Source: Escherichia phage F2
Reading direction: 5' to 3' (one strand)
DNA length: 64,000 bases
Sequence record: NC_054913.1
The notes beneath the pieces are model-generated. The model did not search any database. It saw only the letters and a list, made by a program, of their open reading frames with translations, and had not been told where the DNA came from. Of the stretch, positions 511 to 8,666 are shown one piece after another (the stretch's first letter is position 1; each line of letters opens with the position of its first letter). The position numbers and the translations under genes were made by a program.

Positions 511-1146
511 ATGAAAACTACTCCTATTACTATCGCTATTGACGCAATCATAAAACAAGCTTCTTCTTTGGCCGCTATGGCCAAAGTAATTAGTCAAAAC
601 CCTGCTCGTTATAATGCTATTCTAGAAACTCTTCGACGCCCAGGACTTAGTAATTATGAAAGCCGAGTAATTATTACAGGTGTTGGTAAGAATGCTAATA
701 TTGCAACTAAAGCTTCTGAGACATTTGCTTCACTCGGTATCCCGAGTATGTACTTGAACACTGGACATTATTCTCACGGTGATGCAGGATTCATTGCGCC
801 TAATGATGTGTTGATTCATATTAGTCGTTCTGGTAAAACTGAAGAAATGATAGGCGTGGCTAAGCATCTTAAAATGATTCGTCCGAACGTCAAACAGATT
901 CTGTTGCATTGTAACCCGGACATTCCACAAGAATACGAAGCTCTTTTTGATTATACGTTCTGTACAGGCATCGCAGTAGAGGTTGATGAGAATTCTCTGG
1001 CTCCGACCATGTCCACTACATTGTTGTTAGCGCTTATCGATACGTTTGCTATCAACCTTTCGTCTGAACGTGGATTTACCTCTAATGACTTCCTTAAGTT
1101 CCACCCTGGCGGTGCACTAGGTGCCATGTTACGAGGCGAACAATGA
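511..1146 (+). CDS. SIS-domain sugar-phosphate isomerase, KdsD/GutQ-like (arabinose-5-phosphate isomerase type, no CBS domains)
   Basis: ITGVGKNANIATKASETFASLGIPSMYLNTGHYSHGDAGF...HISRSGKTEEM...LAPTMSTTLLLALIDTF...FHPGGALG aligns motif-for-motif with the KdsD SIS domain (GMGKSG..FASTGTPS..HGDLG..ISNSGES..LAPTSSTT..SHPGGALG). Confidence 0.8.
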   Translation: MKTTPITIAIDAIIKQASSLAAMAKVISQNPARYNAILETLRRPGLSNYESRVIITGVGKNANIATKASETFASLGIPSMYLNTGHYSHGDAGFIAPNDVLIHISRSGKTEEMIGVAKHLKMIRPNVKQILLHCNPDIPQEYEALFDYTFCTGIAVEVDENSLAPTMSTTLLLALIDTFAINLSSERGFTSNDFLKFHPGGALGAMLRGEQ

Positions 1147-1327: not shown

Positions 1328-3013
1328 ATGAAAAAAGCTGTTATTCTTGGTGCTGGACTGGCAACTCGTTTGTATCCAATAACGCATCATATTCCTAAGG
1401 TGCTTGTTAACTATAAACAAGACACTATTCTGAGCAATTTGTATACAATTTATTCTGACCTTGGCGCAGATGAAATTATTGTAGTAGTTCATTCAAAATT
1501 TGCTGAAACTGTTCGAGCTTATTGTGAGCAAGAAGGGTTCAATGTGACTATTCGTACAGTTGATGAAGCGTATGGTTCTGCTTATGCTCTTGCTAAATTG
1601 CACAAAGATTTAGACGGCCATAATGTAATTGTTAACTGGTGTGATATTATTCCTGATTTTGGTTCATGGTCTTGGAATGTTAACGCAATCTATGTTAAGG
1701 GTGACGAATGTCGATATAATTTCGACGGTGAAAATATCACTAATGTAGGTTCAACAGGTGGTAATGTTGTAGGAATTTATCAGTTCAAAGACTGGGAATT
1801 CTATATGGGTTCTACTGATGAGGAAATTCATGAATACTGCAAAGGACGTGATTTCGTAGAATTCCTTTACGGCAGCGCATTCAATAAATCAGAGCTTATG
1901 AATCTAATTGATTTAGGTGATATGCCTAAACTTGAAAAAGCTCATGAAGTTCGTGAACTTAATCGTAGTTTTAATGCAGTTGAAATTGGTGAAGAAACTG
2001 TAACTAAATTCGCATTAACCGAACAGGGCCGAGCTCTTCAGAAAGATGAGATTTCATGGTATCTTAAAGTGAAATCAGATTCAGTTCCTCAGTTAGTTTC
2101 TGTTAATGAAAATAACTTTGAAATGGAACGCATTAAAGGTAAGCCGGCATTTGAATATATTAAATCCAAATCAAGTCTTGCTCGTCCACAAATTGTTGAT
2201 GCAATTTTAGATGCACTGAAATTCAGCACAGACACTTATTTTGTAAGTCCTGAAACTGTTCGTCGTGATTTCACTAAAGAATTCTATACTAAAGTTATTG
2301 ATCGTTGTGAAAGTATTCAACCATTGATTGATTCATTTGGTAAAATCACACATGTGAACTACACTAAGATCGGACGTCTGAAGCCAATGTTGAAACAAGC
2401 TTTAGAACACCTTATTCGTTATCATAACCGTTCTCAGGGACAGTACTCTGTTATTCATGGTGACCCGAACTTCAGTAATACTATGATTACTGATAACGGC
2501 GAAGTCAAGTTTATCGACCCTCGTGGATATTTTGGTGAAACCAAGATTTACGGGCCAAAATTGTATGATGAAGCTAAAGTGCTTTACGCTGTTTCAGGTT
2601 ATGATGAATTCAACGCTAATCCGACTTGGGGACAGTTTACTATTGATGAAACAACTTGTAATGTGACTATTAACATCAATCCATTAGTTTACAAATATGG
2701 AAAGATGAGTTCGTTTAACGAGTATCATCATTTGGCAGTGGCAATTATCTGGATTGCATTAGGTGGTTATTTCAAGAATAATCCACTTAAAGCGGTAGCC
2801 GCATATTATAAAGGTATGGAACTTCTGACTAAGCAATTACGTAATATGGGCCGTGTACTTCAAGACGGCTCTATTAGTTATGACGTAGCAGAACCTGTAA
2901 CGGCTACTCTGATTACAAAAAATCCTGGTAAATGGGTACTAACTGATAAAGAAACTGGTGTTTCCTATCGTCCAATCGGTGGCGATATCACTCATCAATG
3001 GGAACGAATCTAA
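1328..3013 (+). CDS. bifunctional sugar-1-phosphate nucleotidyltransferase (N-term) / APH-type sugar kinase (C-term)
   Basis: N-terminus ILGAGLATRL is the GxGTRL signature of RmlA/GlmU-type NDP-sugar pyrophosphorylases; C-terminal region has Brenner motif VIHGDPNFSN and IDPRG typical of aminoglycoside/choline-kinase fold. Confidence 0.7.
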   Translation: MKKAVILGAGLATRLYPITHHIPKVLVNYKQDTILSNLYTIYSDLGADEIIVVVHSKFAETVRAYCEQEGFNVTIRTVDEAYGSAYALAKLHKDLDGHNVIVNWCDIIPDFGSWSWNVNAIYVKGDECRYNFDGENITNVGSTGGNVVGIYQFKDWEFYMGSTDEEIHEYCKGRDFVEFLYGSAFNKSELMNLIDLGDMPKLEKAHEVRELNRSFNAVEIGEETVTKFALTEQGRALQKDEISWYLKVKSDSVPQLVSVNENNFEMERIKGKPAFEYIKSKSSLARPQIVDAILDALKFSTDTYFVSPETVRRDFTKEFYTKVIDRCESIQPLIDSFGKITHVNYTKIGRLKPMLKQALEHLIRYHNRSQGQYSVIHGDPNFSNTMITDNGEVKFIDPRGYFGETKIYGPKLYDEAKVLYAVSGYDEFNANPTWGQFTIDETTCNVTININPLVYKYGKMSSFNEYHHLAVAIIWIALGGYFKNNPLKAVAAYYKGMELLTKQLRNMGRVLQDGSISYDVAEPVTATLITKNPGKWVLTDKETGVSYRPIGGDITHQWERI

Positions 3014-3399
3014 TGCACCGTGTAGAAAACATGCTTAATCTTTGTTTTGATGTCGACGATTGTATAACAGAGTGGAATAACAATCGTGATTACGTGAACT
3101 TCAAGCCAGACGTCGAAATGGTGACTGCCATTAATGCCCTGTATGATGCAGGGCATACCATAACGCTTTACACTGCTCGCGGTATGAAGTCAGTCGGTCC
3201 TGGTCGTATAGCAATTGACATTCTCCCAAGTCTGATTCAGAACTTGGCAAACATTGGATTGAAGTACCATAATTTGCTAACACATAAACCAGTATATGAT
3301 TGGATTATCGACGACAAAGCTATGCGTCCTGACGAATTCAAAGCTCTTATGAATAAAGGCGAATTCGAAACATTTAAATCATATAAACCGAATCTATAA
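3013..3399 (+). CDS. HAD-superfamily phosphatase (small, GmhB/KdsC-like)
   Basis: HAD motif I LCFDVDDCIT, motif II LYTAR, motif IV WIIDDK; start chosen at ATG overlapping upstream stop (TAATG). Confidence 0.6.
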   Translation: MHRVENMLNLCFDVDDCITEWNNNRDYVNFKPDVEMVTAINALYDAGHTITLYTARGMKSVGPGRIAIDILPSLIQNLANIGLKYHNLLTHKPVYDWIIDDKAMRPDEFKALMNKGEFETFKSYKPNL

Positions 3400-3446
3400 T
3401 AATTTAAGTAAGACCTGCAAAAACCATCGCATCAATTAACGGCGAG

Positions 3447-4616
3447 ATGCAAAAAATGAATACCTTTAAAATCGGAACGAATTTTGATTTAGCTCTTCTT
3501 GATAAAATCGTAGAGCTCAATAAAACTTATCCTAATAGCTTGATAAACGAAGTATACGGCTCTACAAGAGAAATGGCTTTTGTAGCAGCCAGACCTGATT
3601 TTAGGCTTCCTGACGTTGACAAAAAGATGTTAGAAGATTACGTTAAACGTTGTAACGAATTAGGTATTTGCTTTAACTATACACTCAACACGATAAATCC
3701 TGGTTCAAAAAGAGAACTAGTTGAGTGGAAGAAGAAAGCTATTCAGGACTATGTTCAGTATCTTTGGTCAATAGGCGTATGGCGTATTACTATCGCTAAC
3801 CCTGTTGTTATGGAAATTGTTCGTGAAGTCAATAAAGACATTGAGATTGAAGTTTCAACAATTCTACATGTCGATGCTGTAACTCAAATCAAATACTTGC
3901 ATGACCAATATAATATCAAAAAGGTCTGCTGTGGAATTCATAAGAACCGTTCAGTTTCTTTCCTGAAGCGTGCAGCAGAGTTTTGTAATAAGAACAATAT
4001 AATATTTGAAGTTCTTGTAAATGAGTTCTGTTCTAATGCTGGTAAAGGGTATACAACACATTGTAGCTATCGTGACTCTTGCTATATTTTCCATAGCACC
4101 GATGTTACAGTAGATGATGCCAAATCCTTAAATGGATATCCAATGCAGCACTGTATTAAAGCTCGTGATACAGACCCATTTAACTGGTTGAGAACTCGTT
4201 TTGTTCGTCCTCAAGATTTGAAACTTTATAATGATATTGGTATCACTCAATTCAAAGTTTCAGGACGTACAGGTAGCACCGACTACATTTTGAAAGTTCT
4301 TGAAGCTTACGCTTCTGAAAAGTTTGAAGGTAATTTGTTGGAATTGTGGAAGCCTTTAGAGACCATTTTCACTCTTGAAAATGAGACTGAGTTTTCACAT
4401 ACGGTAAATATTGAAACCTCTTTGTTAGATGGCTTTTTAGAAAAAAGGTGGTTCAAACATCCAGATTTCGATTGTGCTAATGAAATCTGCGGGACGACGT
4501 GTACATATTGTGAAAGATATTATAAACGTCAGTTATCTAAAAATGGGTTATCAGAAAACTCTATATCTATTATTGATATAACTAACTCTGATGACGCTTT
4601 GAGGTACCCAGAATGA
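3447..4616 (+). CDS. Cys-rich protein of unknown function (possible metal/Fe-S enzyme) in sugar module
   Basis: 389 aa ORF, consistent coding frame; cysteine clusters EFCSNAGKGYTTHCSYRDSCY and C-terminal CANEICGTTCTYC; weak resemblance to U32-type TIM-barrel enzymes, not confirmable by eye. Confidence 0.55.
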   Translation: MQKMNTFKIGTNFDLALLDKIVELNKTYPNSLINEVYGSTREMAFVAARPDFRLPDVDKKMLEDYVKRCNELGICFNYTLNTINPGSKRELVEWKKKAIQDYVQYLWSIGVWRITIANPVVMEIVREVNKDIEIEVSTILHVDAVTQIKYLHDQYNIKKVCCGIHKNRSVSFLKRAAEFCNKNNIIFEVLVNEFCSNAGKGYTTHCSYRDSCYIFHSTDVTVDDAKSLNGYPMQHCIKARDTDPFNWLRTRFVRPQDLKLYNDIGITQFKVSGRTGSTDYILKVLEAYASEKFEGNLLELWKPLETIFTLENETEFSHTVNIETSLLDGFLEKRWFKHPDFDCANEICGTTCTYCERYYKRQLSKNGLSENSISIIDITNSDDALRYPE

Positions 4617-4894
4617 TTTCTAGAAAAACTTTTAACCACCAACTTAACGAAGAGATTTTGACTATTAAAATTAACAGCAACGAACAAATTCTTAAAAAGG
4701 CCCTTATGGGCCTGTTTGAAACTAAAGCGGCTAAAGTGATTAAAGAACCTGTTCAATTGTAATACTACGCTGATGCATTTCTTCATAGTGTTCTTGGAAG
4801 TATCGATGCTGAAGCTTTACGTTATATCAACATCGCTAAGAAATTCAAATAAGCTTTATGAATTGAGTATATAATAAATTGTATTGAGGTAAAC

Positions 4895-5611
4895 ATGGGA
4901 AAACATAACACAATGAAATATATTAAAGCCGCAGATTTTCAATCCGCATTTAAAGCTGTCAATCGTGAAATTTTAGAAAACCCGGAATTCGTTACTGATT
5001 CTCGTATTGGACGTTGTAATGAAATTGGGTCTATGACAGTAGTTGTTGATACCCCTTCATCATTCAAAATGACAGACCCACGTATTAATCGCATCTCTTA
5101 TGAATATGCTGAAGATTTCTGGAAATTTATGATTTCTGGTGGTACTGATGCAGAAGAAGCATTTAAGGCATATCCTAACGTTGCTAAATTTATTTCTAAA
5201 CCTAAATCAGATGCTTTGCCTGCAAACTTCAACACTTTCTACGGTCCACGAATTGCGGCCCAGTTACCAACTCTTCTAAAAGAACTTAAAGAAAAACCTA
5301 ACTCTCGAAGAGTTGTGTTCCAAATTCTAGAAAGTTCTGATCAGGCTTTGCTTGATTCAGACGAAACACTTGAATATCCATGTACTGACTCAGTGACTTA
5401 TTATATTCGTGATGGTAAGCTTTATACCCACTGTCATATGCGTTCTCAGAACTGTGCTGTTGTTATGCAGTTGGATTTTTATCTCCAAGGAAAATTACTT
5501 CATTATATCGCTAACGAATGTGGTGTAGAAGTTGGTGATTATACTCATACCATGGTAAGTGCCCATGTGTTTGAACGTGATTTTGATTATGTTAAAGGAT
5601 TCCTTGTCTAA
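4895..5611 (+). CDS. 42: dCMP hydroxymethylase (thymidylate-synthase superfamily)
   Basis: NSRRVVFQI...YPCTDSVTYYIRDGKLYTHCHMRSQNCAVVMQLDF parallels TS catalytic region (DSRRII...PCHxxxQFYVxDGKL...RSxD) but is distinct from td at 53514; syntenic with T4 gene 42; SD GAGGT upstream. Confidence 0.75.
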   Translation: MGKHNTMKYIKAADFQSAFKAVNREILENPEFVTDSRIGRCNEIGSMTVVVDTPSSFKMTDPRINRISYEYAEDFWKFMISGGTDAEEAFKAYPNVAKFISKPKSDALPANFNTFYGPRIAAQLPTLLKELKEKPNSRRVVFQILESSDQALLDSDETLEYPCTDSVTYYIRDGKLYTHCHMRSQNCAVVMQLDFYLQGKLLHYIANECGVEVGDYTHTMVSAHVFERDFDYVKGFLV

Positions 5612-6510
5612 TGGCTATTTTCCGCGTACCTATCTTGAGTATGCGGTCTTATGAAACTGGACAGTATGCTATCCTTAAGGATGGCAACTTCCAACTTCAT
5701 TTGCACCGTGCTAATCCGGGTGATGTGATTACATATCCACGTAATGCATCTGATATTAAAGAATGCGAACGTCTTTTCCCAGAATTTAAGTTTGTTCCAT
5801 TATGGTATAAAGATAACGCATATAACACTCGTAAATATTTCTGGTCTGAAAATGAATTTGTGGTTGATTCATTAATTGATTATTATGATTGTGATTTTCT
5901 AATCACAGATATCACTGGATATGACGGCAATTTTGACGTAGAATTCAATTTCAATATCACTGCAGACCCTAATAAACCACGTTTTTATATTGACGAATTC
6001 TTAAAAACCGACATGTTGTCTGTTAATCGTTCACTTCAAACTACTGTGTTGAATGAACGTCAAAAAGAAGTGCTGGTTAACGCAGGTGCAGATGGTAATA
6101 AGATTATCGTAACGCAGAAAGTTATACGTCCTTCCATCATGCAGCGTCTTGTAGGTGATTTGGCTCCTATTCATCTAGATGGTATTTTTCATCCATTTCG
6201 AATTAGTGACCCGTGCTATCGTTTTGAACAAGTGGTTGAATGTGCAATTCAATTAGGTCAACCGCTTTATATAACCGATCCAAATAATAGCTTCGACAGA
6301 AATAAGTATCCTGAAGAAGCGCTGATTCGAATTTTTAAACCAACTAAAACTGAGTACTATCAAATTCTTAAAGGACGTCCGAAGATTCAATACTTCGAAA
6401 ATCCTGAAGAAGTATTCCATCCAGGTCTTGGCGAGTTCATCTACTTTAATGCTTTAATTTCTTCGCCGTATAATATACCTAAATATGAAGATGTCGTAAT
6501 CGAGGAATAA
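5611..6510 (+). CDS. hypothetical protein occupying the T4 beta-glucosyltransferase position
   Basis: 299 aa ORF, start overlaps stop of gene 42 (TAATG); no motif I recognise; not similar to remembered T4 beta-gt. Confidence 0.5.
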   Translation: MAIFRVPILSMRSYETGQYAILKDGNFQLHLHRANPGDVITYPRNASDIKECERLFPEFKFVPLWYKDNAYNTRKYFWSENEFVVDSLIDYYDCDFLITDITGYDGNFDVEFNFNITADPNKPRFYIDEFLKTDMLSVNRSLQTTVLNERQKEVLVNAGADGNKIIVTQKVIRPSIMQRLVGDLAPIHLDGIFHPFRISDPCYRFEQVVECAIQLGQPLYITDPNNSFDRNKYPEEALIRIFKPTKTEYYQILKGRPKIQYFENPEEVFHPGLGEFIYFNALISSPYNIPKYEDVVIEE

Positions 6511-6511
6511 A

Positions 6512-7060
6512 ATGGCTAAAATTATTTTAGTAGATGGCCCGGATAATGCTGGTAAAACAACTTTCATTAATGACATAATGGAAATTAGTGAAAGATATGT
6601 AAAGATTGATTTCCCTAAACGAACAGTTGATGGACGTTTCGATGTTAAGTCTCGAAATGAAGTTGGCTGTTTCGAAACGATGTTGAATTATTTAGACCCT
6701 ACTAAGATTTATCTGTTAGACCGTGGATATATTAGTAACTGGGTTTATGGACGTATTCGACAAGATGCGGACTCGGTTCTTGACGTTTATGAACAGGATT
6801 ATGTTCGTCTTTGCCAAAACCATGATGTGTTCACAATTATTTTAACACGTAACGAAATGACTGAAAGTTTTGAAGACGACCTTATTACTTTGTCTTCATT
6901 CAGGTTTAATACAGTCATTTCGTATTTTGAAGAGTTTGCAATTCATAACGAAATCCAAACGTATCAATTACTTAATCATGATGGTGCTAACAAAGTTATA
7001 GGATTTAATGCAAGCGAACGTAATAATTTGATTACAGAAATTATCAAATGGGCTCGTTAA
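6512..7060 (+). CDS. P-loop nucleoside/nucleotide kinase-like protein (thymidylate-kinase fold)
   Basis: Walker A ILVDGPDNAGKTT at N-terminus, DRGY lid-like segment; resembles dTMP kinase/dNK family layout. Confidence 0.55.
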   Translation: MAKIILVDGPDNAGKTTFINDIMEISERYVKIDFPKRTVDGRFDVKSRNEVGCFETMLNYLDPTKIYLLDRGYISNWVYGRIRQDADSVLDVYEQDYVRLCQNHDVFTIILTRNEMTESFEDDLITLSSFRFNTVISYFEEFAIHNEIQTYQLLNHDGANKVIGFNASERNNLITEIIKWAR

Positions 7061-7078
7061 GAGCCTGTTTAAAGTTTT

Positions 7079-7106
7079 AAATGCTGTATAACCCTTAGTA
7101 TATAAT
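7079..7106 (+). promoter_or_regulatory. candidate MotA-dependent middle promoter upstream of uvsX (MotA box AAATGCTGTA + TATAAT)
   Basis: aaatgctgta 12 nt upstream of tataat, about 55 nt before uvsX start; matches T4 middle promoter architecture. Confidence 0.4.
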
Positions 7107-7159
7107 CGTCTTATCTTTTAAACATGAGTAAAATATAATGATGCCTATGGAAAAATACA

Positions 7160-8332
7160 ATGTCTGATTTAAAATCTCGTCTGATTAAAGCTTCTACTTC
7201 TAAAATGACTGCAGACTTGACTAAGTCTAAGCTGTTTAATAATCGTGATGAAGTCCCTACTCGTATTCCGATGTTGAATATTGCATTAGGTGGTGCACTG
7301 AATGCTGGGTTGCAATCAGGCTTAACTATTTTTGCTGCTCCTTCTAAACACTTTAAAACGTTGTTTGGACTGACCATGGTTGCAGCATATATGAAGAAAT
7401 ATAAAGATGCAATTTGTTTGTTCTATGATTCGGAATTTGGTGCTTCAGAATCTTATTTTCGTTCAATGGGTGTTGATTTAGACCGTGTAGTTCATACTCC
7501 GATTCAATCTGTCGAACAACTTAAAGTTGATATGACTAATCAGCTTGACGCGATTGAACGCGGTGATAAAGTTATTATCTTTATCGATTCAATCGGTAAT
7601 ACTGCATCTAAGAAAGAAACTGAAGATGCATTGAACGAGAAAGTTGTAGGTGATATGTCTCGTGCTAAGGCACTTAAATCTCTGTTCCGCATTGTGACTC
7701 CTTATCTGACTATTAAAGATATTCCATGTGTTGCAATCAACCATACAGCAATGGAAATCGGTGGATTGTATCCTAAAGAGATTATGGGTGGTGGTACAGG
7801 TATTCTTTACTCTGCTAACACTGTATTCTTTATCTCTAAACGTCAGGTTAAAGAAGGTACAGAATTGACCGGTTATGACTTCACGTTGAAAGCAGAAAAA
7901 TCTCGCACCGTTAAAGAAAAATCTACTTTCCCAATCACGGTTAATTTCGATGGTGGTATTGACCCATTCAGTGGCTTGTTAGAAATGGCAACTGAAATCG
8001 GTTTTGTAGTTAAGCCTAAAGCCGGGTGGTATGCTCGAGAATTCCTTGACGAAGAAACAGGCGAAATGATTCGTGAAGAGAAATCATGGCGTGCTAAAGC
8101 TACTGATTGTGTAGAATTCTGGGGACCGTTGTTTAAACACAAACCTTTCCGAGATGCAATTGAAACTAAATATAAACTAGGTGCTATCTCTTCTATTAAA
8201 GAAGTTGATGATGCTGTTAACGACCTTATTAATTGCAAAGCAACAACTAAAGTTCCGGTTAAAACTTCTGATGCTCCTTCTGCAGCAGATATAGAAAACG
8301 ACCTTGACGAAATGGAAGATTTCGATGAATAA
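7160..8332 (+). CDS. uvsX: UvsX recombinase (RecA-like)
   Basis: 390 aa; sequence MSDLKSRLIKAS...IPMLNIALGG...DSEFGAS... matches T4 UvsX throughout. Confidence 0.95.
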   Translation: MSDLKSRLIKASTSKMTADLTKSKLFNNRDEVPTRIPMLNIALGGALNAGLQSGLTIFAAPSKHFKTLFGLTMVAAYMKKYKDAICLFYDSEFGASESYFRSMGVDLDRVVHTPIQSVEQLKVDMTNQLDAIERGDKVIIFIDSIGNTASKKETEDALNEKVVGDMSRAKALKSLFRIVTPYLTIKDIPCVAINHTAMEIGGLYPKEIMGGGTGILYSANTVFFISKRQVKEGTELTGYDFTLKAEKSRTVKEKSTFPITVNFDGGIDPFSGLLEMATEIGFVVKPKAGWYAREFLDEETGEMIREEKSWRAKATDCVEFWGPLFKHKPFRDAIETKYKLGAISSIKEVDDAVNDLINCKATTKVPVKTSDAPSAADIENDLDEMEDFDE

Positions 8333-8666
8333 TCTCGATGATTTAAATCTAGAAATCGTTGATGAATCCCCTTCTTCGGAAGGGGAAGACATTCGCAAAG
8401 AACGAGTGTTTAATGAATCTCTTAAAATTATCCGTTCAGCAATGGAAAATGTCATTCAAGAGATTCTGATTACACTTGAAGATGGTTCTCATCATATAGT
8501 CTATATTACAAAACTAGACTGGGTTGATGGTAAAATCGTAATGGACTTTGCAGTTCTTGACCAAGACAGAAAAGCAGAACTTGCACCACATGTTGAAAAA
8601 TGTGTTACAATGCAAGTACAACAAGCTTTTAATGAACGGACCAAGAAAAAATTTAAATTCTTTTAA
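8325..8666 (+). CDS. 40: gp40 head vertex assembly chaperone (by position/size)
   Basis: Small ORF between uvsX and 41 as in T4; start ATG overlaps uvsX stop. Confidence 0.55.
   Translation: MNNLDDLNLEIVDESPSSEGEDIRKERVFNESLKIIRSAMENVIQEILITLEDGSHHIVYITKLDWVDGKIVMDFAVLDQDRKAELAPHVEKCVTMQVQQAFNERTKKKFKFF

What the first reader, a model, noticed from the sequence alone, without database searches (positions are those of the whole stretch)
3447..4616. Cys-rich 389-aa protein of unknown function embedded in the sugar module
No T4 counterpart at this position; it has a Cys cluster (EFCSNAGKGYTTHCSYRDSCY) and a C-terminal Cx4Cx3Cx2C motif suggestive of metal or Fe-S binding. Co-location with the isomerase/kinase/phosphatase genes suggests it acts in sugar or nucleotide modification (for example an oxidoreductase or epimerase step), possibly defining a novel modification.
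Basis: inference. Interest (0 to 1): 0.65.

Follow-up and report, generated by a model that had tools for sequence, protein, structure and literature searches.

The report
Phage U32 iron-sulfur protein, probable anaerobic cytosine hydroxylase
The Cys-rich protein is a divergent member of the U32 "peptidase" family, whose characterised members are needed to hydroxylate RNA pyrimidines and ubiquinone precursors without oxygen, and it most likely gives this RB69-like phage an oxygen-free route to the 5-hydroxycytosine on which its DNA sugar coat is built.

Summary

It keeps the Glu and two Cys that are essential in TrhP and RlhA. It also has a strictly conserved C-terminal Cx4Cx3Cx2C motif.

The module makes arabinosyl-5-hydroxycytosine (Lee et al. 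2026). Its known hydroxylase, the neighbouring thymidylate-synthase homolog, needs O2 and flavin. UDP-arabinose synthesis was shown without a U32 protein, and Acinetobacter phage DLP3 makes the modification with no U32 gene.

About 50%-identical U32 homologs sit in unrelated metagenomic phages. There they lie next to the same base-proximal glycosyltransferase family, a nucleotide kinase, MazG, dCMP deaminase or the arabinose genes. None has a 5-hydroxy-dCMP-synthase-type homolog within 10 kb. Often they lie next to a phage DAHP synthase–chorismate mutase, which makes prephenate, the oxygen donor shown for UbiU/UbiV.

Best explanation (confidence about 0.5): an O2-independent, prephenate-dependent C5 pyrimidine hydroxylase. 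No papers held here propose this. Two key papers could not be read. No activity was tested.

The parts
3447..4616 (+). U32-family Fe-S protein (RB69ORF050c ortholog), 389 aa. The probable true start is ATG 3456, giving 386 aa.
4008..4154 (+). U32 signature region and core Cys set: E188, C195, C206, C212, H216 and C236. This is the putative [4Fe-4S] site.
   Evidence: E188, C195 and C212 align with TrhP E162/C170/C177 and RlhA E161/C169/C176, which are essential residues (PMC6599085). They are invariant across homologs. There is a 10-residue insertion carrying C206 relative to the canonical Cx6C spacing.
4473..4511 (+). C-terminal Cx4Cx3Cx2C motif (C343, C348, C352, C355). It is a putative second metal or Fe-S site and is absent from UbiU, UbiV and TrhP.
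   Evidence: Invariant in 121 of 121 close homologs. All four Cys are present in 113 of 123 distant representatives. No aligned counterpart in the E. coli paralogs.
3373..3400 (+). Sigma-70-like promoter match (TTTAAA-16-TATAAT) in the 47-nt gap upstream of the ORF. This is weak evidence.
   Evidence: The number of promoter-like sites in the region is not above the shuffled expectation.
511..1146 (+). SIS-domain arabinose-5-phosphate isomerase (RB69p055 ortholog).
   Evidence: Pfam SIS. RB69 annotation. PMC13326640 Table 1.
1328..3013 (+). Bifunctional nucleotidyltransferase/kinase (AfhE-like, RB69p052:53). It is an intact single ORF here.
   Evidence: Pfam NTP_transferase plus kinase-like hits. 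PMC13326640 section 27.
2998..3399 (+). HAD-like phosphatase (AfhF-like, RB69p051).
   Evidence: PMC13326640 section 27.
4895..5611 (+). Thymidylate-synthase homolog, the O2/flavin-dependent 5-hydroxy-dCMP synthase (RB69 gp48 ortholog).
   Evidence: Pfam Thymidylat_synt. It carries the E143 and N169 signature that PMC13326640 uses as diagnostic. 18O2 labelling is reported there.
5611..6510 (+). Base-proximal DNA arabinosyltransferase (RB69 gp46:47 / DLP3 gp79 family).
   Evidence: PMC13326640 Table 1. hhalign to the glycosyltransferase next to U32 in unrelated phages gives probability 99.9%, E 3e-31.
6512..7060 (+). Thymidylate-kinase-like nucleotide kinase (RB69p045).
   Evidence: hhalign to the kinase next to U32 in the type C loci gives probability 97%, E 1e-10.

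Best explanation
The protein is a phage-adapted U32-family iron-sulfur enzyme. It most likely hydroxylates C5 of a cytosine nucleotide without O2 to give 5-hydroxy-dCMP, the base to which the phage's arabinose is attached. dCMP is the most probable substrate, and cytosine already in DNA is the alternative. By analogy with UbiU/UbiV (oxygen donor shown) and with TrhP and RlhA (prephenate requirement shown), the oxygen would come from host prephenate. The core cluster (C195/C206/C212/C236), and perhaps the C-terminal Cx4Cx3Cx2C cluster, would carry away the two electrons.

In RB69-like phages of facultative anaerobes it would work in parallel with the O2- and flavin-dependent thymidylate-synthase-like hydroxylase encoded 280 bp downstream. 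That would mirror the bacterial aerobic/anaerobic pairs TrhO/TrhP and UbiI,H,F/UbiU,V. In phages of strict anaerobes it would be the only hydroxylase.

Shown here: family membership, fold, conservation of the essential residues, and the gene-neighbourhood patterns. Inferred: the Fe-S content, the substrate, the use of prephenate, and the anaerobic role.

For: 2. Metal ligands. C195, C206 and C236 are invariant, and position 212 is Cys or His, across 244 family members.

3. The known pathway has an O2-dependent step and needs no U32 protein for the sugar. gp48 incorporates 18O2 and binds flavin. AfhE and AfhF suffice for UDP-arabinose. DLP3 makes tri-arabinosyl-5hoC with no U32 gene (PMC13326640).

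4. Displacement of the hydroxylase. In 41 non-T4 loci, about 50%-identical U32 genes sit beside:
- the same base-proximal glycosyltransferase family (hhalign E 3e-31);
- a TMK-like kinase;
- MazG, dCMP deaminase or dUTPase, or the SIS/AfhE/HAD sugar genes.
The only TS homolog within 10 kb of any of them is a canonical ThyA.

5. Supply of the proposed co-substrate. Phage DAHP synthase genes lie within one or two genes of U32 in 6 loci, and a seventh locus (L051) has a fragment four genes away. Four of them carry a C-terminal chorismate mutase. Reciprocally, 8 of 16 IMG/VR contigs that encode such a DAHP synthase also carry the U32 gene.

6. Ecology. Among isolated phages with the 5hodCMP synthase, U32 is present in enterobacterial and Shewanella phages and absent from all 57 Acinetobacter (strict aerobe) phages. 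Metagenomic relatives are binned with obligate anaerobes, and one lies in a Phocaeicola isolate genome.
Against: - No biochemical or genetic data exist for this protein in any source I could read.
- No U32 protein has yet been shown to hydroxylate anything in vitro (PMC10990095).
- Similarity to RlhA, TrhP and UbiU is very low: HMM scores of 16 bits or less and hhalign probability of at most 73%. The Cys spacing differs from the canonical Cx6C.
- Dhakavirus phages of E. coli, and some Enterobacter and Serratia phages, have the 5hodCMP synthase but no U32 gene. The gene is therefore dispensable even in hosts that grow anaerobically.
- The Acinetobacter absence is probably a single phylogenetic event.
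- 'No TS homolog' holds only within 10 kb of each metagenomic locus.
- U32 also co-occurs with sugar-nucleotide genes in many loci, so a sugar role is not formally excluded.
- The oxidant required by the proposed chemistry is unknown.
Confidence: 0.5

Rival explanations
1. The protein acts on the sugar branch. It would oxidise, reduce or epimerise the pentose phosphate or the UDP-arabinose. This matches current annotations: 'sugar or heterocycle reductase', 'epimerase', and 'putative enzyme involved in UDP-arabinose biosynthesis'.
For: In T4-like phages the gene sits directly after the isomerase/kinase/phosphatase genes. It does the same in about 13 unrelated phage loci. PMC13326640 Table 1, PMC13390438 and the GenBank annotation of Bas46/47 lean this way.
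Against: As summarised in PMC13326640, UDP-arabinofuranose is produced from arabinose-5-phosphate by AfhE and AfhF alone. DLP3 and Dhakavirus carry the sugar genes without U32, and DLP3 is shown to arabinosylate. The type C loci (MazG, kinase, glycosyltransferase, U32) and the dCMP-deaminase-U32 loci keep U32 with no sugar-nucleotide genes. No U32 member is known to act on sugars.
Confidence: 0.12
2. The protein is a redox partner of the neighbouring 5hodCMP synthase. Its Fe-S clusters would reduce the synthase's loosely bound flavin, and it would not be a hydroxylase itself.
For: It lies next to gp48 in every T4-like locus. gp48 needs reduced flavin, and its flavin is weakly bound (PMC13326640). 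The protein has two conserved Cys clusters.
Against: None of the 41 non-T4 loci has a 5hodCMP-synthase-type homolog within 10 kb, yet they retain the protein. gp48 with a kinase makes 5hodC in E. coli without it (PMC13326640). The conserved U32 catalytic-motif residues and the adjacency to a prephenate-producing gene are unexplained by a pure electron carrier.
Confidence: 0.08
3. The protein hydroxylates RNA, either phage or host tRNA wobble uridine or rRNA cytidine, as TrhP and RlhA are thought to do. It would tune translation during infection rather than modify DNA.
For: The two U32 members linked to pyrimidine hydroxylation act on RNA (PMC5727448, PMC6599085). T4-like phages encode tRNAs (general knowledge).
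Against: The gene is embedded in DNA-modification and nucleotide-metabolism operons in at least four unrelated phage lineages. It lacks the C-terminal domains of RlhA and TrhP. E. coli hosts already encode RlhA, TrhP and TrhO.
Confidence: 0.07
4. The protein is a genuine collagenase-like U32 protease, as the RefSeq product name 'peptidase' implies.
For: The family name and the RefSeq annotation. The top structural match is deposited as a predicted collagenase-family protease.
Against: The catalytic type of U32 'peptidases' is undefined. The characterised members are Fe-S proteins required for hydroxylation (PMC6747719, PMC10990095). Conserved synteny with nucleotide and DNA-modification genes gives no role for a protease.
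Confidence: 0.02

Closest known systems
RlhA (YdcP), needed for 5-hydroxycytidine at C2501 of E. coli 23S rRNA
   Same: It shares the U32 domain, the essential Glu and two Cys of the signature motif, and the FKxxGRxxSxxY motif. It is needed for C5 hydroxylation of cytosine, depends on prephenate and is linked to iron (PMC5727448). It gives the best hhalign match among the E. coli paralogs (E 3e-5).
   Different: RlhA is 653 aa with a large C-terminal domain and acts on rRNA. Its Cys pattern is Cx6Cx15Cx3C, against Cx10Cx5Cx23C plus a C-terminal Cx4Cx3Cx2C here. Sequence similarity is marginal.
TrhP (YegQ) and the TrhP/TrhO dual pathway for tRNA ho5U34
   Same: TrhP is a U32 protein needed for prephenate-dependent, O2-independent C5 hydroxylation of a pyrimidine. 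It is paired with an unrelated O2-dependent enzyme for the same product (PMC6599085). That is the same logic proposed here for gp50 and gp48.
   Different: Its substrate is tRNA uridine. It has no C-terminal Cys cluster. It is not detectably closer to the phage protein than the other paralogs.
UbiU/UbiV, required for O2-independent ubiquinone hydroxylation
   Same: They are U32 proteins that each bind a [4Fe-4S] cluster through the conserved Cys motif. Prephenate was shown to be the oxygen donor. They back up the flavin- and O2-dependent UbiI, UbiH and UbiF (PMC6747719, PMC10990095). UbiU is the only NCBIfam hit, far below threshold.
   Different: They form a heterodimer with a lipid substrate and an SCP2 partner, UbiT. 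The phage protein is one polypeptide with two Cys clusters and has no UbiT-like neighbour.
Thymidylate-synthase-like 5-hydroxy-dCMP synthase (RB69 gp48, DLP3 gp80, HY126 homolog)
   Same: It would make the same proposed product in the same operon. It occupies the same position relative to the glycosyltransferase and kinase.
   Different: It has an unrelated fold and uses flavin and O2 (PMC13326640). It is absent from the non-T4 loci that carry U32.
Mk0906 (PDB 5d88), U32 'peptidase' from Methanopyrus kandleri
   Different: Identity is 14%. It is 247 aa and has no counterpart of the C-terminal Cys motif. Its function is unknown.

Membership tests
Peptidase U32 superfamily (Pfam PF01136) | Match to the family profile above the curated threshold | tested here: met
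   42.4 bits against a gathering score of 22.4, E 6e-11, residues 97-289.
Peptidase U32 superfamily (Pfam PF01136) | U32 TIM-barrel fold | tested here: met
U32 hydroxylation-linked proteins (RlhA, TrhP, UbiU, UbiV) | The signature Glu and two Cys that are essential in TrhP (E162, C170, C177) and RlhA (E161, C169, C176) | tested here: met
   E188, C195 and C212 occupy those alignment columns. C195 and C212 are invariant, and E188 is 90% or more conserved, in close homologs.
U32 hydroxylation-linked proteins (RlhA, TrhP, UbiU, UbiV) | Canonical Cys spacing Cx6Cx15/16Cx3/4C (x38 in UbiU) | tested here: not met
   The spacing here is C195-x10-C206-x5-C212-x23-C236, with a 10-residue insertion. Four conserved Cys are still present, and position 212 is Cys or His in distant members.
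U32 hydroxylation-linked proteins (RlhA, TrhP, UbiU, UbiV) | Binds a [4Fe-4S] cluster | not testable with these tools
   Only the conservation of candidate ligands can be shown.
U32 hydroxylation-linked proteins (RlhA, TrhP, UbiU, UbiV) | Prephenate-dependent, O2-independent hydroxylation | not testable with these tools
   Support is indirect. Phage DAHP synthase and chorismate mutase genes lie next to homologs. 8 of 16 phage contigs with such a DAHP synthase also carry U32.
UbiU (NCBIfam NF047963 equivalog) | Score above the equivalog cut-off, with UbiV and UbiT partners | tested here: not met
   19.3 bits against a cut-off of 440. There is no UbiV- or UbiT-like neighbour.
RlhA / TrhP orthologs | Full-length similarity and the C-terminal domains of these proteins | tested here: not met
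   No NCBIfam match. The family HMM scores 16 bits or less against the E. coli proteins. The C-terminal regions do not align.
Radical SAM enzymes | A Cx3Cx2C motif within a radical-SAM core domain | tested here: not met
   C348-x3-C352-x2-C355 fits the spacing. However, it lies at the extreme C-terminus outside the barrel, and no Radical_SAM profile matches.
5-hydroxy-dCMP synthase (thymidylate synthase superfamily) | TS fold with the N169 signature | tested here: not met
   The U32 protein is unrelated to it. That enzyme is the neighbouring ORF at 4895-5611, which has E143 and N169.

The most novel reading that the evidence does not exclude
This protein defines a largely viral branch of the U32 family that acts as an O2-independent, prephenate-dependent hydroxylase of DNA precursors. 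If so, it would be:
- the sole source of 5-hydroxypyrimidine for glycosylated DNA in phages of strict anaerobes, some of which bring their own DAHP synthase-chorismate mutase to raise prephenate;
- the anaerobic backup of the O2/flavin enzyme in RB69-like phages;
- the first U32 enzyme with a soluble small-molecule substrate, which would make the unresolved U32 chemistry testable in vitro.
Probability: 0.45. Interest if true: 0.85.

Novelty: new variant of a known kind. Interest (0 to 1): 0.72.

Why it matters
5-Hydroxycytosine-based DNA hypermodification was described only in 2025-26. Its one known hydroxylase needs molecular oxygen, yet these phages and many metagenomic relatives infect bacteria that live without oxygen.

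A prephenate-dependent U32 hydroxylase would explain how the modification is made in anoxic habitats. It would extend O2-independent U32 hydroxylation from RNA and quinones to DNA precursors and to viruses. It would also give a function to phage-encoded DAHP synthase/chorismate mutase genes.

No U32 hydroxylase has yet been reconstituted in vitro (PMC10990095). A single-subunit enzyme acting on dCMP could be the tractable model the field lacks.

There is a practical side too. Arabinosyl-5hoC protects phage DNA from restriction and CRISPR, so whether it is made in the gut matters for phage therapy.

Tried and rejected
- phmmer against PDB sequences found nothing relevant.
- NCBIfam gave only a far sub-threshold UbiU hit.
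- hhalign and a family HMM against E. coli UbiU, RlhA and TrhP were too weak to place the protein in any characterised subfamily.
- The AlphaFold-database Foldseek library was unavailable.
- He et al. 2026 (Nat Chem Biol) and Mahler et al. 2025 (Cell Host Microbe) are not held. They may discuss this gene, so I cannot exclude that the function has been tested there.
- Searches for a paper linking U32, prephenate or anaerobiosis with phage 5hoC found none. The search for Afh gene names returned only unrelated papers.
- Radical-SAM reading of the C-terminal Cx3Cx2C: rejected. There is no profile match and the location is wrong.
- KDO-pathway reading of the DAHP-synthase-like neighbour (KdsA with a KdsD-like SIS protein): rejected. 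NCBIfam DAHP synthase models score 3-4 times higher than KDO8P synthase models, and four copies carry a chorismate mutase domain.
- The single TS homolog near a non-T4 U32 gene (L023) was checked and is a canonical ThyA with L143, D169 and N177.
- The promoter and terminator scan was not above the shuffled expectation.
- The small downstream ORF is not a conserved partner. It is 49 aa here, 79 aa in RB69 and absent in L008.
- PADLOC gave no match for the protein.
Full report
**What is there.**
The window is a T4-like phage of the genus Mosigvirus. The 1,170-bp ORF is 98-99% identical to RB69 and its relatives and corresponds to RB69ORF050c, annotated in RefSeq as 'peptidase'.

The ORF at 3447-4616 (+) encodes 389 aa with 13 cysteines. 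GGCGAG at 3441-3446 abuts the first ATG, and its GAG lies 9 nt before the second ATG. Many homologs also start at MNTFK. The real start is therefore probably 3456.

The gene order is:
- DNA polymerase C-terminus;
- SIS arabinose-5-phosphate isomerase (511-1146);
- nucleotidyltransferase/kinase (1328-3013);
- HAD phosphatase (2998-3399);
- this ORF;
- a thymidylate-synthase homolog (4895-5611);
- a glycosyltransferase (5611-6510);
- a TMK-like kinase (6512-7060);
- uvsX.

**Family and structure.**

The protein is far from every characterised subfamily. NCBIfam gives only 19 bits to UbiU against a cut-off of 440. A family HMM scores 16 bits or less against E. coli TrhP, RlhA and UbiU. hhalign reaches only E 3e-5 with RlhA.

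What is conserved is informative:
- E188, C195 and C212 fall in the columns of the Glu and two Cys that mutagenesis showed to be essential in TrhP and RlhA (PMC6599085).
- The FKxxGRxxSxxY motif is shared.

**The cysteines.**
In 121 homologs, C161, C195, C206, C212, C236 and the C-terminal C343, C348, C352 and C355 are invariant. In 123 more distant cluster representatives, C195, C206, C236 and R274 remain essentially invariant. Position 212 is Cys in 75 and His in 47, a swap typical of a metal ligand. The four C-terminal Cys are all present in 113.

The core set is spaced Cx10Cx5Cx23C rather than the canonical Cx6Cx15Cx3/4C. It is a variant of the motif that binds [4Fe-4S] in UbiU and UbiV (PMC6747719). 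The C-terminal Cx4Cx3Cx2C has no counterpart in the E. coli paralogs. It may be a second cluster. Metal binding itself could not be tested.

**What the module does, from the literature.**
Lee et al. 2026 (PMC13326640) showed that RB69 DNA carries mono- and di-arabinosylated 5-hydroxycytosine. The thymidylate-synthase homolog gp48 makes 5-hydroxy-dCMP using O2 (18O2 labelling) and a loosely bound flavin. The ortholog in this window has their diagnostic N169 and E143.

They summarise work on phage HY126 showing that AfhE-type and AfhF-type enzymes suffice to make UDP-arabinofuranose from arabinose-5-phosphate. RB69p050 appears only in their Table 1, as a 'sugar or heterocycle reductase', with no experiment. 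Other sources call it an epimerase (PMC13390438) or a UDP-arabinose biosynthesis enzyme (GenBank annotation of Bas46/47).

Acinetobacter phage DLP3 makes tri-arabinosyl-5hoC with the same module but no U32 gene. I confirmed that its phosphatase gene abuts the TS homolog. The U32 protein is therefore not needed for the sugar or for aerobic hydroxylation.

**Comparative genomics, the main new evidence.**
The family is large: 1,179 cluster representatives at E of 0.001 or better. The clade close to this protein is rare in cellular genomes. A pattern scan of 185,579 species genomes found 10 loci. The same kind of scan found 44 loci in IMG/VR viral contigs.

Fifteen of the viral loci are T4-like and carry the full RB69-type module, including the TS homolog. 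I examined 41 non-T4 loci in all: 29 of the viral loci, the 10 genome loci and 2 earlier contigs. They fall into recurrent contexts:
- Type B: glycosyltransferase, SIS, AfhE-like, HAD, U32.
- Type C: MazG, TMK-like kinase, glycosyltransferase, U32, DNA polymerase III alpha. There are no sugar-nucleotide genes.
- A dCMP-deaminase-U32 pair in very large phage contigs, one of 466 kb.
- L081: U32 flanked by two glycosyltransferases, with a UDP-galactopyranose mutase about 4 kb downstream.
- Type D: a four-gene cellular cassette, described under 'Side observations'.

The glycosyltransferase next to U32 is homologous to RB69 gp46:47 and DLP3 gp79, the enzyme assigned to put the first sugar on 5hoC (hhalign probability 99.9%, E 3e-31). 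The adjacent kinase is related to RB69 gp45 (E 1e-10).

None of the 41 loci has a 5hodCMP-synthase-like gene within 10 kb. The single TS homolog found, in L023, has the canonical ThyA residues L143, D169 and N177.

The trio of hydroxylase, base-proximal glycosyltransferase and nucleotide kinase is therefore conserved. The hydroxylase slot is filled by the TS homolog in DLP3, by U32 in these metagenomic phages, and by both in RB69-like phages.

**The prephenate link.**
Seven of the non-T4 loci encode a DAHP synthase. Six copies lie within one or two genes of U32. The seventh, in L051, is a fragment four genes downstream.
- NCBIfam scores them as DAHP synthase, not KDO8P synthase (for example 237 against 63 bits).
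- Four carry a C-terminal chorismate mutase domain (Pfam CM_2, E 7e-18).

Chorismate mutase makes prephenate. Prephenate is the metabolite required by TrhP and RlhA, and it was shown by 18O labelling to be the oxygen donor for UbiU/UbiV (PMC5727448, PMC6599085, PMC10990095).

The reverse test holds too. Of 16 IMG/VR contigs that encode such a DAHP synthase, 8 also carry the U32 gene, one of them about 120 kb away on the same contig. The U32 clade was found on only about 50 of 2.9 million viral contigs, so this cannot be chance. The window itself has no such gene. E. coli makes prephenate with PheA and TyrA.

**Host pattern.**
Among isolated phages, the 5hodCMP synthase occurs in 344 records, including 57 Acinetobacter phages. 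The U32 protein occurs in 220 records:
- All hits are at 80% identity or more.
- The genera I could see are Escherichia, Klebsiella, Shigella, Serratia, Proteus, Yersinia, Enterobacter, Providencia, Edwardsiella, Morganella, Kosakonia, Pectobacterium and Shewanella.
- No Acinetobacter phage appears in the top genus counts or the 60 rows shown. Seven minor genus words were not displayed.

Acinetobacter is a strict aerobe, and the genera listed above are facultative anaerobes.

The metagenomic relatives are binned with Oscillospiraceae, Erysipelotrichales, Lachnospiraceae, Tannerella and Eubacteriaceae. One lies in a cultured Phocaeicola faecalis genome.

The pattern is suggestive but not clean. 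Dhakavirus phages of E. coli, such as Bp7, lack U32 and the SIS gene. So do some Enterobacter and Serratia phages. The Acinetobacter phages are probably a single lineage.

**Interpretation.**
The best-supported reading is an O2-independent, prephenate-dependent C5 hydroxylase of a cytosine nucleotide. This parallels the bacterial aerobic/anaerobic pairs TrhO/TrhP and UbiI,H,F/UbiU,V.

A mononucleotide substrate is favoured for two reasons. U32 is repeatedly adjacent to a dedicated nucleotide kinase, MazG or dCMP deaminase. These phages also replace all cytosine before replication. Action on DNA cannot be excluded.

I put this at about 0.5. The rivals are a sugar-branch enzyme (0.12), a redox partner of gp48 (0.08), an RNA hydroxylase (0.07) and a true protease (0.02). 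The remainder is unknown.

Nothing here is biochemical. The Fe-S content, the substrate, the oxygen donor and the anaerobic role are all inferences.

**Novelty and limits.**
The gene is known and annotated, and the modification is published. The proposed role is not in any paper I could search. He et al. 2026 and Mahler et al. 2025 were not available and may bear on it. I rate it a new variant of a known kind: U32 hydroxylation extended to viral DNA precursors.

**Side observations.**
The closest cellular relatives (42-47% identity) form the type D cassette:
- a PF17338 (GP88) protein;
- a guanylate-kinase-like/methyltransferase fusion;
- a protein weakly resembling AGOG/HhH-GPD DNA glycosylases;
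- the U32 protein.

The cassette sits in chromosomal regions of anaerobes. In two of the three loci I checked, the flanks carry restriction, Abi and STAND NTPase genes. It matches no PADLOC system.

Noticed in passing
L055:5192-9086, L058:5161-9086, L059:3044-7137 (also L042, L052, L056, L057, L060): The closest cellular relatives of the phage U32 protein (42-47% identity) sit in a conserved four-gene cassette. Its genes are a PF17338 'GP88' protein, a guanylate-kinase-like plus SAM-methyltransferase fusion, an unknown ~267-aa protein with weak AGOG/HhH-GPD DNA-glycosylase similarity, and U32. The hosts are anaerobes, including a Phocaeicola faecalis isolate. In L055 and L058 the flanks carry an Eco57I-like methylase/helicase, Abi_2 and a STAND NTPase, so they look like defence islands. 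L059 has ordinary chromosomal neighbours. There is no PADLOC match. This may be an undescribed defence or DNA-modification cassette.
   Followed up: partly
L032:8411-9433, L034:9-971, L035:7302-8357, L036:8332-9387, L003:9145-9891, L021:9384-10130, L072:9998-11017, L075:9980-11098: Phage-encoded DAHP synthase genes, most with a C-terminal chorismate mutase domain. This auxiliary metabolic gene would raise prephenate. 8 of 16 IMG/VR contigs that carry it also carry the U32 gene. The others lie near dUTPase, radical-SAM or cytosine-C5 methylase genes.
   Followed up: partly
L081:7777-16179: In a 61-kb metagenomic phage contig, U32 is flanked by a Gly_transf_sug glycosyltransferase, a 334-aa protein in the position of the base-proximal transferase, a TAGT-like (Tet-associated) glycosyltransferase and dUTPase. 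A UDP-galactopyranose mutase lies about 4 kb downstream. This recalls the galactofuranosyl-5hoC of Rhizobium phage RL38J1, but no TS homolog was called.
   Followed up: no
L002:7447-9939; L079:8279-10601; L080: In very large phage contigs (one of 466 kb), U32 lies directly after a dCMP deaminase and before an overlapping 248-254-aa protein with no Pfam match, near thymidylate kinase, UDG-like and DNA polymerase III alpha genes. The substrate there might be a uracil rather than a cytosine nucleotide.
   Followed up: no
window 4613-4874: The small ORF after the U32 gene is 49 aa here (4613-4762), followed by a separate 33-aa ORF. RB69 annotates one 79-aa ORF049c. Some relatives (L008) have only a 47-nt gap at this position. 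It is probably not a conserved gene.
   Followed up: partly
window 1328-3013 and 5611-6510: The nucleotidyltransferase/kinase (561 aa) and the glycosyltransferase (299 aa) are single intact ORFs here. The RB69 reference splits each into two genes (52/53 and 46/47). This agrees with the statement in PMC13326640 that those splits are sequencing errors.
   Followed up: yes
L062 (Escherichia phage Bp7, Dhakavirus) 4409-8589: Dhakavirus has a reduced module: AfhE-like, phosphatase, kinase, 5hodCMP synthase and glycosyltransferase. It has neither the SIS isomerase nor U32, and the kinase sits before the synthase rather than after the glycosyltransferase.
   Followed up: partly
L052:8001-9140 and a second copy about 6 kb downstream: One Bacillota MAG contig carries two paralogous copies of the phage-type U32 gene, of 365 and 377 aa.
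   Followed up: no
window 3447-4616, residue 212 (nt 4080-4082): The second signature cysteine (C212, equivalent to TrhP C177) is replaced by histidine in 47 of 123 distant family representatives. The other three core Cys stay invariant. This suggests a subfamily with a Cys3His-ligated cluster.
   Followed up: no
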